A stretch of DNA of 64,000 nt, taken from the NCBI GenBank assembly GCA_965217775.1, contig CBDCJH010000002.1:6080001-6144000 (forward strand), written 5' to 3'. Positions within the stretch are counted from its first letter, which is position 1, and every line of letters starts with the position of its first letter. The notes beneath the pieces were generated by a model. That model was not told the origin of the DNA. It did no database searches and was given only the letters and a program-made list of their open reading frames with translations. Below are positions 1,563 to 57,241 of the stretch, piece by piece. Made by a program: the position numbers and the translations under genes. The stretch is from Acidobacteriota bacterium (lineage in GTDB: Bacteria > Acidobacteriota > UBA6911 > RPQK01 > JAJDTT01).

Positions 1563-1963
1563 TTGGATTTCCCGCTCCCGTAGACCTTGGATGGGTCGAA
1601 TACCGGCTCCACCGAGACGGCCAGTCTCCCGTCTTCCACTTTCCGAAAAAAGCAACTCCTGTAGCCCTTGTGGCAGGCGGCGCCTCCGACCTGAGTGATC
1701 CGGAACAACAGAGTGTCGGCGTCGCAGTCCACGTGAACGGATCGGATCTGCTGCACGTGTCCGCTCTCCTCTCCCTTGCGCCAGAGACGGTCGCGGCTCC
1801 GGGAGTAGTAACAGACCCGGCCGGTGCGGAGCGACTCCGCCAGCGCCTCCGAATTCATGTACGCCATCATGAGGACGTCGCCCGTCTCGTCATCCTGAGC
1901 GATGACGGGGACGAGCCCTCCCTGCTTGTCAAAGTCGATCTGGTCCTGAAGCGACACGCTCAA
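1559..1963 (-). CDS. hisI: Phosphoribosyl-AMP cyclohydrolase
   Basis: [24 protein letters not shown] and [11 protein letters not shown] motifs. Confidence 0.97.
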
Positions 1964-3000
1964 CCTTCCTTTCCCGTGGAGTCGAACATGGGTGCCAAGT
2001 CCCGGTGGTGATAGAAAAGCGCCGGCGTTCCGCCGGTGTGCAGGAAGACGAGGTCGTGGCCCTTTCGCCAGCGGCCCCGACGGACGTCCGCCAGGAGAGC
2101 CCCCATGGCCTTGCCCGTATAGACGGGATCCAGAAGGATCCCCTCCCGTCGAGCCAACAGGGAGATGGCTTCCAGGCTTTCGGGGGTCGCGATGCCGTAT
2201 CCGGTGCCGATGTAGTCAGGGCTCGCCTGAACGTCTTCCAGCGTCACGGCCGGTTCGAGTTCCAGAAGCGCAGCGGCGTCGTTGGCCAGTTTGACCATGT
2301 AGGAAGCGGTGTCGAAGGGCCATTCGATGGGCATGATCGCCTCCAGAGCCGCCTCCCATCCCAGCAGCTTCCGGCCCAGGAACATCCCCGCGCCGGTGGA
2401 GCCGCCGGAGGAGAAGTAGACGGCGTCGGCCCGGACGCCCTGCTCGTCCAATTGTTCCCGGAGCTCCAGCAAGGCCAAGGTGTAGCTAACGGCCGCGGCG
2501 GCCCGAGAGGCCGGGTCGGCGATGGTGAAGACCTTTCGTCCTTCGCTCCTCAGGCTGTCGGCCTTCTCCTTGATCTTGTTCCAGAGGGGCGGTCCCATGG
2601 GTTCCGAGTTGAGCTCGATCCGGGCCCCGACCAGGTGGTCCAGGAGGAAGTTTCCCTGGAACTCAATCTCGGCGTGATCCGTGGTCAGGACCAAGTGGCA
2701 TTCCAGGCCCAACTTGGCCGCGGCGGCCGCGGTCTGGCGGCAGTTGTTGGACTGGATTCCGGCTCCCCAGACCAGGGTGTCGGCGCCTTCCTCCAGGGCC
2801 CTCCCCAGGATGAACTCGTTGTGCCGGGCCTTGTTCCCGCCGAAGGCGAGGCCGGTGCAGTCGTCCCGTTTGATGAAAATCCGGGGACCGCTCATTGCTG
2901 CACTCAGACGGGGAAGCTCTTCCAGGGGTGTGGGCAGATGGGCCAGTTGGACCCGGGGAAGACGGTCGATCCTGGCTCGAAGTTCCTGGGGGCTGATCAT
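1960..3000 (-). CDS. D-cysteine desulfhydrase / ACC deaminase family PLP enzyme
   Basis: [37 protein letters not shown] and FLHTGG motifs. Confidence 0.92.
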
Positions 3001-46755: not shown

Positions 46756-47300
46756 GGTTGTGTTGCAACTTTGGCCGACGACGGCTGGTAGCCTGAGGAG
46801 ATCATGAAGAAGGCAATCCGACCGGCGATCTTCAAGTGGCGAGAAACGGAGCCCGATTTGATTCTTTGCGCCGTGCGCTGGTAGCTTCGCTATTCCTCTC
46901 GTTCCGCGATGTCGAAGAGCGGCTCAGCGAGCGCGCCCTGGAGGCGGACCCCACGACAATCTGGCGCTGGGTCCAGCGCTACGGTCCCGAACTGGAGGAG
47001 CGGAGGCGCCGTCGTCTCAAGCCAACCAACAAGTCCTGGCGTGTCGATGAGACCTACGTTCGCCTCAATGATCGCTGGTGCTACCTCTACCGCGCCATCG
47101 ATTCCACCGCCGCCACGATCGACTGCGTACTCTCGGGGTTGCTCATGCCGCGGCGGCCAAACGCCTGTTCCGCAAGGCGCTGACTGATCCGTCGCATCCT
47201 CAACCCCGCGTCATCAACCCGGACCAGGCGCGCATCTGTAAACTCGGCGATCCTCGCCGTGCAAGAACAAGGAACGCTGCGTCGCCGATGCCGACATCGC
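46756..47300 (+). mobile_element. IS6-family relic (degraded transposase)
   Basis: End GGTTGTGTTGCAACTT. Translation FKWR...ILCAVRW*LR / TTIWRWVQRYGPEL...SWRVDETY...YLYRAID with stops and frameshifts. Confidence 0.85.
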
Positions 47301-48967: not shown

Positions 48968-49188
48968 TTCAAGCAATACGAAAGGTCGTTCAAAGAGTCG
49001 GTCTAACCGAGCATCGCCTCTGGCTTGCGACGGTTGTGCACCTGCGGCCAGTGGGCCTCTACACTGAATCTTCTTTATGACCGAGCCAAGACAGACGGGT
49101 CAGTTCTTTGCGCCGACGCACATTTGAGAGCAGGGTTGCTCCACCGGGGGATAGTGCCTTGAGAATGGGTAATATCAGCGCTTGAGGG

Positions 49189-49509
49189 TCAGGAATGGGC
49201 ATCGGTTCTGCTCCCTGCTACCGCCATCATCGTTTTCCGGGGCTGGACGCGCTCGGCAATACTACGGCCAGACTCGATCTCTTCCCGCCGCAGCTCCCAG
49301 GTCTTCTGCAGATTCATCCAGACCTGCCGTGTCGTCCCGAAGTAGCGCGCCAGGCGCAATGCGGTGTTGGCGGTTACGCCCCGCTGCCCATTCAGGATCG
49401 CCGTGATTCGATTCACCGGGACGTCGAGCGCCTTCGACAACGCATTCGCCGACAGGCCAAGCTCATCCAATTCGTCCCGCAAGATCTCTCCCGGATGCAC
49501 CGCCCGCAT
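49189..49509 (-). CDS. higA: HigA family antitoxin (upstream ATG 49527 cut off by TAG)
   Basis: HPGEIL...LS...L..AL.VP.NRI..I..G.R..TA..ALRL..YFG.....WMNLQ. GAGGAGG SD precedes ATG-AGC-TTC-TAG. Confidence 0.9.
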   Translation of the reverse strand: MRAVHPGEILRDELDELGLSANALSKALDVPVNRITAILNGQRGVTANTALRLARYFGTTRQVWMNLQKTWELRREEIESGRSIAERVQPRKTMMAVAGSRTDAHS

Positions 49510-49554
49510 TCTATTCTAGAAGCTCATCGCCTCGACCTCCTCAGTGATAATCTA

Positions 49555-50798
49555 GGGGATTATATACGTAAGTGCCGAGAATTCAGGCTGATGGGTTACA
49601 ATTCCGACCATGAAAGGCCACGCAACTATCCAGTGCAGAGCCAAGCTGTCCAAGGGTGGAATCCGGCGGTTGGACCGGGTGAGGTCCATCCTGAATCGGC
49701 TGTACAACGCTGCACTGGAGGAACGCAGGACGACGTGGGAATCCGAGGAACGCGGCGTGACCCTGTACGATCAGATGAAGGGGTTGACCTCCCAGAGGAA
49801 GGACGATCCGGAGGGGCTCGGGTCGGTGGCGGTCAAAGCGGAGCGTGGGATGTTGATGCGGTTGGACCGGGCCTTCAAGGCGTTCTTCCGTCGCTGCAAG
49901 GCGGGGGAGAAGCCGGGGTATCCTCGATTCCGGCCCATTGCGAGGATGGAGACCATCGACGTCGTCGACCCCAAAGCGACCATGGTGAAGAAGCGCGCTC
50001 GGGGCTACGCCATCCGGCCCAAGGGCTTCCCGACGATCCGGATATTTCCGTCCCGGCCGTTGCCGGACGGATGCCCGTTGAAGGCGTTGCGGATTGTCCG
50101 CAAGCCGAACCGGGTGTATGTGGACCTGACGTACGAGGTGGAGAAGCCGCCGCTACCGAAATGCGAGTCTTCGGTAGGGATCGACCTGGGCGTCCGCAAG
50201 CGAGCGGTGCTGTCCACGGGTGAGAGGATCGAACGGAATAGACGGGACTGGGCGGGGATCCGAAAGCAGCAGAGAAAGGTCTCCAGGTGCAAGAAGATTT
50301 CCAAGACCAGACGGAAGCGGATCGTACAGCTATCTCGGCTCCGTCACCGGGAAGCGGTCCGAAACCGTAATGCCTGCCATCGTCTCTCCAGCAGGATCAT
50401 TCGTGAGCACGGTCTGATCGCTGTGGAGAAGCTGAACATCCAAGGGATGGTAACGAAGGGCTCGAAGAAGAAGGGGCTGAATCGAGAAATAATGACGCAA
50501 TCCTGGGGGCTTCTGCGGAATCAACTCCAGTACAAGGCAGAATGGGCCGGTCGGAAGTTCGTAGAAGTGAATCCCGCATATACATCGCAGGACTGCCACC
50601 GGTGCGGCGCCCGCCACGATCCAGGGCGGAGCGAAACCTTCCGGTGCAGGGCCTGCGGACTTAGAATGGACAGGGACCACAATGCCGCCCTGAACATTCT
50701 CAGGGCTGGGGTTCTTGCCCTGGGCACCGGAACGTATCTCGTTGGGGAAAGCGTGGTGCCAGAACTGTATGCCAAGGGCACTTAGGTATATAAGCCCC
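49555..50798 (+). mobile_element. Non-autonomous TIR element (IS1595/ISNwi1-like ends) carrying tnpB
   Basis: TIRs GGGGATTATATACGTAAGTGCC (49555-76) and GGCACTTAGGTATATAAGCCCC (50777-98), 20/22 identical. 8-bp direct repeat ATAATCTA (49547-54, 50799-806). Confidence 0.88.
49610..50785 (+). CDS. tnpB: RNA-guided endonuclease TnpB
   Basis: LYNAALEERR, GYPRFR, RuvC-I GIDLG, RuvC-II AVEKL, Zn finger TSQDCHRCG/CRACG and RuvC-III DRDHNAALNI. Confidence 0.96.
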   Translation: MKGHATIQCRAKLSKGGIRRLDRVRSILNRLYNAALEERRTTWESEERGVTLYDQMKGLTSQRKDDPEGLGSVAVKAERGMLMRLDRAFKAFFRRCKAGEKPGYPRFRPIARMETIDVVDPKATMVKKRARGYAIRPKGFPTIRIFPSRPLPDGCPLKALRIVRKPNRVYVDLTYEVEKPPLPKCESSVGIDLGVRKRAVLSTGERIERNRRDWAGIRKQQRKVSRCKKISKTRRKRIVQLSRLRHREAVRNRNACHRLSSRIIREHGLIAVEKLNIQGMVTKGSKKKGLNREIMTQSWGLLRNQLQYKAEWAGRKFVEVNPAYTSQDCHRCGARHDPGRSETFRCRACGLRMDRDHNAALNILRAGVLALGTGTYLVGESVVPELYAKGT

Positions 50799-50818
50799 AT
50801 AATCTATGATGTTGACGG
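50690..50818 (+). ncRNA. Putative omegaRNA/reRNA scaffold plus flank-derived guide
   Basis: Stems CAGGGC/GCCCTG (50701-22) and GGCACC/GGTGCC (50723-60). Possible pseudoknot GTTCT (50711-15) with AGAAC (50761-65). Position overlaps the tnpB 3' end, as is typical. Confidence 0.5.
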
Positions 50819-50874
50819 GTGTGGGTGAGTGTATCAGCGGTCATCTGAGTTCTTTCCTCAAGTTCGTCTCACTA

Positions 50875-51474
50875 TCAATTCAGCAGTTGCCGGCAGGTCA
50901 CCTGCAGCATTTTCCGCACTAAGGGGCGCGCTAAGCGATCAGGAAGGCTGGCGTCGCAGCGAAGGAAATCTACAAGCTCGGAGGACCGTCCAAGAACCTG
51001 CACATCTCGAACCGGCGGGTCCCCGACCTGCGGGTCGATCCATCGTGTGCCGACAACCGTCAGGGCATCTCTGCTGTCGACCTGGTCGACGAGGATGACG
51101 TTCGCATCTTGCAGTGATACCTCTATGTCCTGCACTCGGGCCGTCCGAGTCTGGCGGTTAAACTGTAGGTTCAGCGTGAAATCGCCAAAGAAGAAGTGGT
51201 GATCCCAGGTTTCCCCGGAACCGCCAGTCCGGCTTCCGCTGGATTCGTCTCGGCCACCTTCTAAAAACCAGCCAGGACTTCCGCGCCAGAGGACGAGCAC
51301 CTCAAGTTCTCCGTCACCCGCCTGCCCGTGAGAGGTGAACAACGTGGCCACTACAGCGGGAGACACCGGCCGAGACCCGCCGGCTCCCGAAGGGGGACGG
51401 TCCCGTGCCTGGGCTTGGAGGGAGACTGACGCCAAGACGCTTAGCAATAGGAAGCAGTGCACTTTTCGTAACAT
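50875..51474 (-). CDS. Hypothetical secreted protein
   Basis: Signal peptide (LLLSVLASVSLQA); no recognised domain. Confidence 0.6.
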   Translation of the reverse strand: MLRKVHCFLLLSVLASVSLQAQARDRPPSGAGGSRPVSPAVVATLFTSHGQAGDGELEVLVLWRGSPGWFLEGGRDESSGSRTGGSGETWDHHFFFGDFTLNLQFNRQTRTARVQDIEVSLQDANVILVDQVDSRDALTVVGTRWIDPQVGDPPVRDVQVLGRSSELVDFLRCDASLPDRLARPLVRKMLQVTCRQLLN

Positions 51475-51816
51475 TGTGTTCCCCGGGTGCCGTTCAAATC
51501 AGCGGTTCGCCCAGGCAAGAGACCGGAACATAGTCAATGATTTTCGCACGCGGTGCCTCCGCGAGCTGAAGAAGATCCAGTAGGCGTGGCCGGGCCTGAA
51601 TACCGGACAAATACGCTCACTTCTCGCCGAATTGAAAGGACAAACATCCTCGCGTCATCTTACAGTTAGTCAGGAGCAAGTAGTGGAGTACATGCACTCA
51701 GCGCGGCGGAGCTGTGGAAATCTCCAAAGAGGAGAATTGCGGACGGCGACGGAGAAAGAGAGGCGAACGGGAGACACTCGAGGAGGGCTGATGATCGAGC
51801 GGAACAAGATCGCACT

Positions 51817-57054: not shown

Positions 57055-57241
57055 GATTCTTGCCTCGACTTTCCGTATTCGTGCGCCAGGCAGGCGCCTG
57101 CGACATCTTGTGACAGGCAAACGTTAGAACCGTCTCCCGGACAAAGTCAACCGGCACGGCCGGGGTTGAAGGAGCCGGTTCCCGATATGCGGATTGACGG
57201 TGCCCCGGGGATGCCCGATTCCGATTGATATAATCCCCAGG

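What the first reader, a model, noticed from the sequence alone, without database searches (positions are those of the whole stretch)
50690..50825. Putative omegaRNA running through the right TIR, so the guide would begin with the TSD
Seen: two stems (50701-22, 50723-60) and a 5-bp loop-to-downstream complementarity (GTTCT/AGAAC) overlap the tnpB 3' end, followed by the TIR. Established: TnpB guides come from DNA just outside the right end and cut the element-free allele next to a TAM. Inference: the guide here would be ATAATCTATGATGTTGACGG. It is preceded by ...CTCAGTG in the empty allele but by ...AAGCCCC in the occupied one. A DDE transposase does not set a TAM the way Y1 TnpA does, so this TnpB may have a relaxed or unusual TAM, or a different self-avoidance rule.
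Basis: inference. Interest (0 to 1): 0.7.

Follow-up and report, generated by a model that had tools for sequence, protein, structure and literature searches.

The report
TnpB guide RNA inside IS1595-type ends
A small mobile element carries only an RNA-guided nuclease gene (tnpB) but has the ends of a different, cut-and-paste transposon family, and its guide-RNA scaffold appears to use the last bases of that borrowed end, which is an unusual but not unprecedented arrangement.

Summary
The sequence features are real. Window 49555-50798 is a 1,244-bp tnpB-only element with 22-nt inverted ends (20/22) and an 8-bp duplication, ATAATCTA. Forty other insertions in relatives show the same layout. The ends are IS1595-type: the left end matches 21 of 22 bases of a genuine IS1595-family transposon (L051).

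Instead, the loop GGGGUU (50708-13) pairs with AAGCCCC (50793-98), the last bases of the right end. Paired changes occur (GGGG/CCCC 28, GGGA/UCCC 10). This pseudoknot sits where the ISDra2 guide RNA has one. Conservation stops exactly at 50798.

So a guide RNA scaffold running through the end is well supported. Where the guide starts is inferred: at 50799, or after the duplication as reported for Fanzors.

New result: the base 5' of the left duplication is G in 40 of 41 insertions, with no mirror-image C on the right. The occupied allele has C there. This looks like a one-base TAM and self/non-self rule. No RNA or cleavage was tested.

TnpB with DDE-type ends is in print; I found no IS1595 case.

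The parts
49546..49546 (+). G immediately 5' of the left duplication; candidate one-base TAM
   Evidence: G at this place in 40 of 41 insertions, against a background G of 0.31 (binomial p 1.3e-19).
49547..49554 (.). Left copy of the 8-bp target-site duplication, ATAATCTA
   Evidence: Identical to 50799-50806.
49555..49576 (+). Left terminal inverted repeat, IS1595-type
   Evidence: (I2). It matches 21 of 22 bases of the ends of the IS1595-family element L051:35-2929.
49610..50785 (+). tnpB, 391 aa, the only gene of the element
   Evidence: Pfam OrfB_IS605 2e-17 and Cas12f1-like TNB 1.3e-26. ISDra2 TnpB is the closest natural solved structure, E 4.9e-32 over residues 27-375. D192, E273 and D356 are invariant.
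50663..50700 (+). Hairpin P0 of the putative guide-RNA scaffold, inside the RuvC-III coding region
   Evidence: In the MFE fold. 7 of 11 pairs show double changes, but only 58.7% of cells are paired. This is the weakest helix.
50701..50722 (+).
   Evidence: 4 of 6 pairs show double changes and 76.1% of cells are paired.
50723..50760 (+).
   Evidence: In the outer helix 5 of 6 pairs show double changes and 80.1% of cells are paired. P2 is absent in four Binatia loci.
50767..50791 (+). Terminal hairpin P3; the 5' arm is the end of the tnpB coding sequence and the 3' arm is the inner part of the right inverted repeat
   Evidence: 7 of 9 pairs show double changes and 90.4% of cells are paired.
50777..50798 (-). 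Right terminal inverted repeat
   Evidence: The tip motif TATATAA[GT][CT]CCC is conserved across the relatives.
50793..50798 (+). 3' strand of the pseudoknot (AAGCCC-C), the last six bases of the element
   Evidence: RNAalifold pairs it with 50708-12. The helix is 90.5% paired. Column pair 200/309 is GC 28, AU 10; column pair 201/308 is UG 21, AU 9, CG 5.
50799..50806 (.). Right copy of the duplication; either the first 8 nt of the guide or a linker
   Evidence: Conservation among relatives ends at 50798.
50799..50818 (+).
   Evidence: Inference only. It is unique in the window.

Best explanation
Window 49555-50798 is a non-autonomous cut-and-paste element. It carries only tnpB and has the inverted ends and 8-bp duplication of the IS1595 family of DDE transposons. 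It is presumably moved in trans by an IS1595-family transposase.

The last ~140 nt (about 50660-50798) encode the scaffold of the TnpB guide RNA. The scaffold has four hairpins and a pseudoknot. In the pseudoknot, the loop of P1 (GGGGUU) pairs with the final bases of the right inverted repeat (AAGCCCC). The transposase-binding end therefore doubles as the guide-proximal part of the RNA.

Transcription would run on into the flank, so the guide would be read from the DNA just outside the end. It most likely starts at 50799 with the duplicated bases.

The RNA-protein complex would then recognise the element-free allele (..G | ATAATCTA TGATG..) and spare the occupied one (..CCCC | ATAATCTA TGATG..). 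The base before the target is G in empty sites and C in the element's own tip.

Shown here: the anatomy, family-wide conservation, covariation, the link to IS1595 ends, and the G at -1.

Inferred: that the RNA is made, where the guide starts, that G acts as a TAM, cleavage, and homing.
For: - The gene is a TnpB with an intact catalytic triad and zinc finger.
- Ends plus an 8-bp duplication were verified in 41 of 81 sources examined (31 with 8/8 and 10 with 7/8 matching bases).
- The left end matches 21 of 22 bases of the ends of L051:35-2929. That element encodes a DDE_Tnp_IS1595 transposase (4.1e-41) and has an 8-bp duplication.
- A second IS1595-family gene lies beside tnpB in L024.
- Alignment of 44 non-redundant tails shows conservation up to the last C, then none.
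- Structure counts: 75.1% of cells paired against 68.6% shuffled; 158 double-change cells against 82.7; 0 of 500 shuffles as high.
- The pseudoknot was found independently by RNAalifold. GGGG/CCCC occurs in 28 rows and GGGA/UCCC in 10, with a third type, GGGACU/AGUCCC, in L017 and L074. Fisher p is 1e-9, not corrected for relatedness.
- In the ISDra2 cryo-EM structure the pseudoknot uses -6 to -2, just before the guide, with -102 to -106 (passages of PMC10097598). Here it uses -6 to -1 with -91 to -86.
- G at -1 occurs in 40 of 41 insertions, while C after the right duplication occurs in 9 of 41 (background 0.31). The duplication has A 165 against T 93, so the target is asymmetric relative to tnpB.
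Against: - No RNA, binding or cleavage data exist.
- No promoter-like site on the tnpB strand and no terminator-like site were found.
- No Rfam family matches.
- The scaffold lies in coding sequence and in a transposase-binding site, so part of the conservation has other causes.
- The rows are related, and the shuffle control does not correct for that.
- P0 is only 58.7% paired, and P2 is missing in 4 of 44 rows.
- L070 and L078 lack the GGG loop in P1. A possible substitute loop was seen by eye only.
- No IS1595 transposase lies in the 64-kb window, so the partner in this genome is unverified.
- In 40 of 81 sources no duplication could be verified. Causes include contig ends, rearranged flanks, decayed ends and limits of my script.
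- A one-base TAM would be unusual for TnpB; the ISDra2 TAM is 5 bases.
- For Fanzors the duplicated bases are reported as scaffold, not guide.
Confidence: 0.6

Rival explanations
1. Fanzor-like boundary. The RNA runs through the end as above, but the 3' copy of the duplication is a linker or part of the scaffold. The 5' copy, together with the preceding G, is read by the protein as the TAM. The true guide then starts at 50807 (TGATGTTGACGG...).
For: This is reported for Fanzor1 and Fanzor2* in cut-and-paste transposons: the TIR and TSD form part of the scaffold, the RNA extends about 15 nt beyond the TSD, and the 5' TSD is part of the TAM (passages of PMC10711439; review PMC13565253). The duplication here is not random: T1 is A in 26 of 41, T2 is A/T in 40 of 41, T3 is A/T in 38 of 41, and T7 is A/T in 40 of 41. 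It is A-rich on the tnpB strand.
Against: The strongest position is the G, which would lie 9 bp from the start of the heteroduplex. The ISDra2 TAM spans only -1 to -5. The information in the duplication is roughly mirror-symmetric (T2/T7 1.25/1.24 bits, T3/T6 1.06/0.79), as expected from a transposase preference. Here the pseudoknot is kept, whereas Fanzor1 is said to have lost it. An intermediate start, at T2-T5, is not excluded.
Confidence: 0.2
2. The G at -1 and the A-rich duplication are a target preference of the IS1595-type transposase alone. TnpB has some other TAM or none, and self-avoidance works differently.
For: DDE transposases do have target preferences. The AT-rich positions 2, 3, 6 and 7 look like one. 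I have no adequate sample of TnpB-free elements with these ends.
Against: A symmetric transposase complex should give G at -1 and C at the mirror position. C is seen in only 9 of 41, below the background of 0.31. The one TnpB-free IS1595 element with near-identical ends (L051) has C at -1 and G at the mirror place, so no G in either orientation. The one clean plasmid case (L088) has A and T. With n = 2 this is only a hint.
Confidence: 0.2
3. There is no functional guide RNA. The hairpins and the loop-tip complementarity reflect coding constraints, DNA-level transposase sites (an internal copy of the end tip) or mRNA stability. On this view TnpB is a decaying or domesticated passenger.
For: The region is coding sequence plus inverted repeat. 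The 5' pseudoknot strand looks like the left-end tip, so a DNA-level reading is conceivable. No expression data exist.
Against: Amino acids change so as to keep pairing. In P1 the forms are CAGGGC/GCCCUG, GGCGGC/GCCGCC and GGCGCG/CGCGCC. In the loop, V changes to N where the tip is AAUUCCC. The catalytic residues are invariant in 33 proteins at 51-96% identity. Many near-identical copies with fresh duplications indicate current activity. The architecture parallels ISDra2.
Confidence: 0.05

Closest known systems
ISDra2 TnpB and its guide RNA (IS200/IS605 family; PDB 8bf8, 8exa, 8h1j)
   Same: The protein is alignable over nearly its full length (E 4.9e-32), with the same catalytic motifs. The RNA overlaps the tnpB 3' end and stops at the right end. 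It has several stems plus a pseudoknot between the bases just 5' of the guide and a segment about 90-105 nt upstream.
   Different: ISDra2 has no inverted ends and no duplication. It is moved by a Y1 TnpA that also fixes the 5-base TAM, TTGAT. Here the ends are inverted repeats of a DDE family and an 8-bp duplication is made. The guide-proximal RNA is the transposase-binding tip, and the only strongly conserved flank base is one G.
DDE-transposase-associated TnpB branches (Altae-Tran et al. 2023, PNAS, PMC10691335; passages read)
   Same: TnpB sits between inverted terminal repeats, with its 3' end within 250 bp of the end. Solo TnpBs have ends like those of transposase-bearing elements and are thought to be moved in trans.
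   Different: The main text names IS630, and a 2026 review lists ISL2, IS630 and IS1031. 'IS1595' occurs 0 times in the main text, and none of the 9 papers holding both 'TnpB' and 'IS1595' looks relevant by title or abstract. The supplements could not be opened, so the family may be in their tables. In the passages I read I saw no scaffold structure, pseudoknot, TAM or duplication analysis for these branches.
Fanzor1 / Fanzor2* in eukaryotic cut-and-paste transposons
   Same: These are TnpB relatives inside TIR+TSD transposons, often as non-autonomous copies. Their RNA overlaps the TIR and runs into the flank, and in some cases the TAM agrees with the insertion site.
   Different: They are eukaryotic or viral, with longer proteins. 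The TSD is said to be in the scaffold, and Fanzor1 lacks the pseudoknot. Here the host is bacterial, the pseudoknot is kept, and it is built from the TIR tip.
IS1595-family insertion sequences with passenger genes
   Same: Same type of ends (21/22 with L051) and the same 8-bp duplication. L051 itself carries passengers, a methylase and an EcoO109I-like endonuclease. The family traits (8-bp repeats, ends of the form ggnnatTAT in the ISNwi1 group) are recalled from ISfinder and come from no call.
   Different: The element in the window has no transposase gene at all. Its passenger is an RNA-guided nuclease whose RNA uses the end.

Membership tests
TnpB RNA-guided nuclease | OrfB_IS605 and Cas12f1-like TNB (zinc ribbon) domains | tested here: met
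   2e-17 and 1.3e-26, both above the curated cut-offs.
TnpB RNA-guided nuclease | RuvC Asp-Glu-Asp triad and CxxC...CxxC | tested here: met
   D192, E273 and D356 are invariant and C329/C332/C346/C349 nearly invariant in 33 proteins. They align with the GVDVG, IGTEHL and DRDENAA motifs of ISDra2. The ISDra2 residue numbers are recalled.
TnpB guide RNA (omega/reRNA), ISDra2 type | Conserved non-protein signal overlapping the tnpB 3' end and ending at the transposon's right boundary | tested here: met
   A2: conservation runs up to column 312 (window 50798) and there is none beyond.
TnpB guide RNA (omega/reRNA), ISDra2 type | Stems kept by compensatory changes | tested here: met
   28 of 45 pairs show double changes; covariation 0.234 against 0.142, 0 of 500 shuffles as high. 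P0 is weak (58.7% paired).
TnpB guide RNA (omega/reRNA), ISDra2 type | Pseudoknot between the bases just 5' of the guide and an upstream segment | tested here: met
   here; the ISDra2 geometry is.
TnpB guide RNA (omega/reRNA), ISDra2 type | RNA is expressed, bound by TnpB and directs cleavage next to a TAM | not testable with these tools
   No expression or biochemical data. No Rfam match.
IS200/IS605 family (IS1341-type, tnpB only) | No terminal inverted repeats and no target duplication; subterminal hairpins; insertion 3' of a fixed 4-5-base motif | tested here: not met
   There is a 22-nt inverted repeat and an 8-bp duplication. The family definition is as stated in the review passages.
IS1595 family of DDE transposons | Encodes a DDE_Tnp_IS1595 transposase | tested here: not met
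   tnpB is the only gene between the ends. There is no tblastn hit to the L051 transposase in the window. The element could therefore only be a non-autonomous derivative.
IS1595 family of DDE transposons | Ends like those of a member that encodes the transposase | tested here: met
   21 of 22 bases identical to both ends of L051:35-2929.
IS1595 family of DDE transposons | 8-bp target duplication | tested here: met
   41 insertions. L051 itself has TTCCGAAA. That 8 bp is the family norm is recalled.
IS1595 family of DDE transposons | Mobilised by that transposase in trans | not testable with these tools
   Only co-residence is seen. L051 and several tnpB copies lie on one chromosome record. Transposase clusters and tnpB records share contig lengths of 6356060, 3449295 and 4597996, which is an indirect handle.
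DDE-associated TnpB branches (PNAS 2023) | Falls in one of the six named branches | not testable with these tools

The most novel reading that the evidence does not exclude
A widespread bacterial TnpB lineage (Acidobacteriota, Binatia, Chloroflexota) has moved from IS605-type to IS1595-type DDE transposons. It has rebuilt the guide-proximal pseudoknot of its RNA out of the transposase-binding tip of the inverted repeat. It tells empty from occupied sites by a single base: G before the duplication against the C that ends the element. That would make it a natural TnpB with an almost TAM-free, one-base requirement. Its retention (or its insertion orientation) would depend on that base, which would explain the one-sided G in nearly every insertion.
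Probability: 0.3. Interest if true: 0.8.

Novelty: new variant of a known kind. Interest (0 to 1): 0.6.

Why it matters
How TnpB cooperates with a transposase that makes duplications and does not choose a TAM is an open point. A 2026 review calls bacterial DDE-linked cases rare and asks for their characterisation.

This family offers a concrete, testable answer:
- the end tip serves as the pseudoknot strand;
- a G/C difference at one position serves as the self/non-self rule.

If the one-base TAM holds, these compact (about 390 aa) nucleases would have a very wide targeting range. The one-sided G also suggests that the nuclease, and not only the transposase, shapes which insertions persist.

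Tried and rejected
- Rfam scan of 49000-51500 at E up to 10: only three chance-level hits, none in the region.
- Promoter and terminator scan of 49450-50950: one weak site on the wrong strand and no terminator.
- Other copies in the window: none for the ends or the guide. A lone TATAATCCCC at 57229-38 looks like chance.
- Transposase partner in the window: tblastn with the L051 transposase hit only L051 and L024.
- Control for the G using TnpB-free IS1595 elements from plasmids: 140 records matched and I fetched 9. Only 2 gave convincing ends plus duplication (L088, and L089 in a poly-A tract), and their ends differ from ours. This is too few to decide.
- DNA search of the whole element against plasmids: two 75-bp matches only.
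- L024: I could not decide whether the IS1595 gene with its own 38-bp inverted repeats is a nested insertion or part of one composite element.
- I considered that the insertion split a toxin gene upstream of the HTH gene. I dropped this because too little open frame lies between the neighbouring genes. I ran no search for it.
Whether this lineage is one of the paper's DDE branches therefore stayed unchecked.
Only one genome-contig scan was allowed, and only 80 of 408 relatives were kept.
Full report
**What is there**

The finding lies at the 3' end of ORF 49610-50785 (+, 391 aa). The ORF carries the Pfam domains OrfB_IS605 (2e-17) and Cas12f1-like TNB (1.3e-26). ISDra2 TnpB is its closest natural solved relative (E 4.9e-32, residues 27-375 against 27-380); an AI-designed nuclease scores higher.

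The RuvC residues D192, E273 and D356 are invariant, and the four zinc-finger cysteines nearly invariant, in an alignment of 33 homologues at 51-96% identity. They align with the catalytic motifs of ISDra2.

The gene sits between 22-nt inverted repeats, 49555-49576 and 50777-50798 (20 of 22 complementary). These have no other copy in the window. The repeats are flanked by the direct repeat ATAATCTA at 49547-54 and 50799-806. The stop codon lies inside the right repeat. The whole element is 1,244 bp and holds no other gene.

**Is the TIR-plus-duplication layout real or a coincidence?**

It found 408 relatives and kept 80 loci, from Acidobacteriota, Bryobacterales, Binatia, Caldilineaceae and Dehalococcoidia MAGs. 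Nearly all end in the motif TATATAA[GT][CT]CCC, after which the flanks differ.

A systematic search for end pairs with matching 8-mers verified the layout in 41 of 81 sources (80 loci plus the window).
- 31 have 8 of 8 duplicated bases and 10 have 7 of 8.
- Element lengths run from 846 to 1,535 bp.
- In the other 40 sources no duplication could be verified. The reasons are contig ends, flanks that no longer match (probably recombination between copies), decayed ends, or spurious best candidates of my script.

A looser second scan added L036, L054 and L064. L077 and L024 fit by eye. Cut-and-paste insertion with an 8-bp stagger is therefore a trait of the whole lineage. The lineage spans about 41-96% protein identity.

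**Which transposon family?**

In L051 a 2,895-bp element (35-2929) is inserted in the left end of a tnpB element.
- It encodes a DDE_Tnp_IS1595 transposase with its zinc ribbon (4.1e-41).
- It also carries an N6/N4 methylase and an EcoO109I-like restriction enzyme.
- It has long perfect inverted ends and the duplication TTCCGAAA.
- Its ends match the left end of the window's element in 21 of 22 bases.

L024 has a second IS1595-family gene (4.3e-30) next to tnpB. Both lie inside a unit flanked by the duplication TTAGTATT.

This transposase family is large. 7,999 of 8,000 scored candidates reach E <= 1e-30, and some are named 'IS1595 family transposase [Bryobacterales bacterium]'.

From memory of ISfinder (no call), the IS1595 family makes 8-bp repeats, and its ISNwi1 group has ends of the form ggnnatTAT. 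GGGGATTAT fits that form.

The window's element is therefore best read as a non-autonomous IS1595-type element whose cargo is tnpB. It fails the definition of IS200/IS605, which has no inverted ends and no duplication (review passages). No IS1595 transposase lies in the window, so the partner in this genome is unverified.

**The RNA**

The fold of 50560-50826 gives four hairpins (z = -3.17):
- P0: 50663-75 / 50688-700
- P1: 50701-06 / 50717-22
- P2: 50723-60
- P3: 50766-76 / 50781-92

I aligned 44 tails that are less than 93% alike to each other (240 nt before the end plus 12 after). These were picked from the 72 sources with a recognisable right end, and I dropped L036 because my script had given it a wrong end. 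Conservation runs to the last C of the element and stops there.

RNAalifold on this alignment returned P3. Unprompted, it also returned a long-range helix between the loop of P1 (window GGGGU, 50708-12) and the tip of the inverted repeat (GCCCC, 50794-98).

I then counted a hand-written structure (P0-P3 plus this pseudoknot) on the same alignment.

| Measure | Observed | Shuffled | Shuffles as high |
|---|---|---|---|
| Cells paired | 75.1% | 68.6% | 0 of 500 |
| Cells with changes on both sides | 158 | 82.7 | 0 of 500 |
| Covariation score | 0.234 | 0.142 | 0 of 500 |

Slid controls gave covariation scores of 0.07-0.09.

| Helix | Cells paired | Pairs with double changes |
|---|---|---|
| Pseudoknot | 90.5% | 2 of 6 |
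| P3 | 90.4% | 7 of 9 |
| P2 (outer) | 80.1% | 5 of 6 |
| P1 | 76.1% | 4 of 6 |
| P0 | 58.7% | 7 of 11 |

In the pseudoknot, GGGG/CCCC occurs in 28 rows and GGGA/UCCC in 10. The next pair is U-G in 21, A-U in 9 and C-G in 5. GGGACU/AGUCCC occurs in L017 and L074, which come from different phyla.

These changes alter amino acids (for example V to N in the loop, and R/L to A/A in P1). That argues for selection on the RNA.

Caveats:
- The rows are related, and the shuffle control does not remove that.
- The structure was partly derived from the window.
- P2 is absent in four Binatia rows.
- L070 and L078 lack the GGG loop in P1. By eye, a GGGAAU loop in their P2 could take its place.

**Comparison with the solved ISDra2 complex**

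In the ISDra2 complex the scaffold is 116 nt, with four stems and a pseudoknot. Nucleotides -6 to -2, directly before the guide, pair with -102 to -106 (passages of PMC10097598). Here -6 to -1 pair with -91 to -86, counting from 50799.

The match in architecture is the main reason to think that the scaffold ends at 50798 and the variable part begins at 50799. The new element is that the 3' strand of the pseudoknot and the 3' arm of P3 are the inverted repeat itself. The end serves both the transposase and the nuclease's RNA. The left tip, the right tip and the internal loop change together.

**The flank**

In the 41 verified insertions the base just 5' of the left duplication is G in 40 (the exception is L012, with A). 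Background G is 0.31, giving p = 1.3e-19. The five extra cases (L036, L054, L064, L077, L024) also have G.

No other flank position carries more than about 0.2 bits. The duplication is AT-rich at positions 2, 3, 6 and 7, in a roughly mirror-symmetric way, as a transposase preference would be.

Two features are one-sided relative to tnpB:
- The mirror position after the right duplication is C in only 9 of 41.
- The duplication has 165 A against 93 T (p = 9e-6).

In the occupied allele the corresponding base is the invariant final C of the element.

The simplest reading is that G is (part of) the TAM, and that G against C is the self/non-self rule. It is not shown that TnpB rather than the transposase sets the G. 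The only TnpB-free insertions with clean ends are L051 (C, mirror G) and plasmid L088 (A, mirror T). Neither has the G, but two cases decide nothing.

**Where does the guide start?**

Starting at 50799 fits the ISDra2 geometry and puts the conserved G at TAM position -1. Against this stand reports on Fanzors in cut-and-paste transposons. There the 3' duplication is described as scaffold, the RNA runs about 15 nt beyond it, and the 5' copy is part of the TAM (passages of PMC10711439; review PMC13565253). On that model the guide would start at 50807.

That would put the G 9 bp from the heteroduplex, which is far for a TAM of the ISDra2 kind. I rate it lower, and a start within the duplication is also possible. 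Only RNA mapping and mismatch or TAM assays can settle this.

**What is known**

TnpB between inverted repeats of DDE transposons is in print. Altae-Tran et al. 2023 describe six DDE-associated branches. These have inverted terminal repeats and a TnpB 3' end within 250 bp of the end, and some solo TnpBs share the ends of transposase-bearing elements (passages). A 2026 review lists ISL2, IS630 and IS1031, calls bacterial cases rare, and asks for their characterisation. Fanzor RNAs overlap the TIR.

I found no mention of IS1595 with TnpB:
- 'IS1595' occurs 0 times in the PNAS main text.
- Nine papers hold both words, and none looks relevant by title or abstract.

My verdict is a new variant of a known kind. 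One structural detail is replaced by a better-supported pseudoknot. The TAM question gains a concrete, testable candidate.

Noticed in passing
L051:35-2929: An IS1595-family transposon carries a restriction-modification pair as passengers (N6_N4 methylase 9.2e-43, EcoO109I-type endonuclease 5.9e-46). It is inserted just inside the left end of a tnpB element, with the duplication TTCCGAAA.
   Followed up: partly
L024:1896-4232: A 2,337-bp unit flanked by the duplication TTAGTATT (G before it) holds an IS1595-family transposase gene (1960-2919, minus strand) with its own 38-bp inverted repeats, plus tnpB. It could be a nested insertion or a composite that moved as one.
   Followed up: partly
L011, L012, L015, L017, L043, L054, L057, L058, L070, L078, L080 (right ends): In these loci the tnpB reading frame runs to within about 5 nt of the element's end, and the TAA of the end motif TATATAA serves as the stop codon. 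This is extreme compaction of gene, RNA and transposase site.
   Followed up: no
L017, L043, L054, L061 (alignment A2 columns ~221-251): The Binatia copies lack hairpin P2 altogether but keep P1, P3 and the end tip. P2 therefore looks dispensable.
   Followed up: no
L070, L078 (alignment A2): The P1 loop has no GGG run. By eye, a GGGAAU loop in the next hairpin is complementary to the tip AAUUCCC, as if the pseudoknot partner had moved.
   Followed up: no
L016:2954-3799 and L048:2939-4040: Internally deleted copies (846 and 1,102 bp) keep both ends and perfect 8-bp duplications. Defective copies apparently still transposed, or were deleted in place.
   Followed up: no
L071, L072, L077, L079 (first ~186 bp of each element): These Caldilineaceae copies carry an extra inward-facing end tip about 186 bp inside the left end. 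It looks like a small end-to-end remnant or MITE fused to the element.
   Followed up: no
L080:4193-4526: Directly after one complete element lies a solo 3' fragment of a second one, consisting of scaffold-like sequence and the end tip.
   Followed up: no
window 49189-49509 (-): A 106-aa HTH_3 (XRE-type) gene starts 37 bp from the element's left duplication. The insertion sits in its upstream region, between it and an unassigned 199-aa ORF at 50875-51474 (-).
   Followed up: no
window 46836-47180 (+): A short ORF matches only the first 36 positions of the DDE_Tnp_IS240 profile (6.4e-12). It is a broken IS6/IS240-type transposase gene about 2.4 kb upstream, unrelated to the tnpB element's ends.
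   Followed up: partly
window 57229-57238: A lone TATAATCCCC resembles the end tip, but nothing else of the element is around it. It is probably chance.
   Followed up: yes
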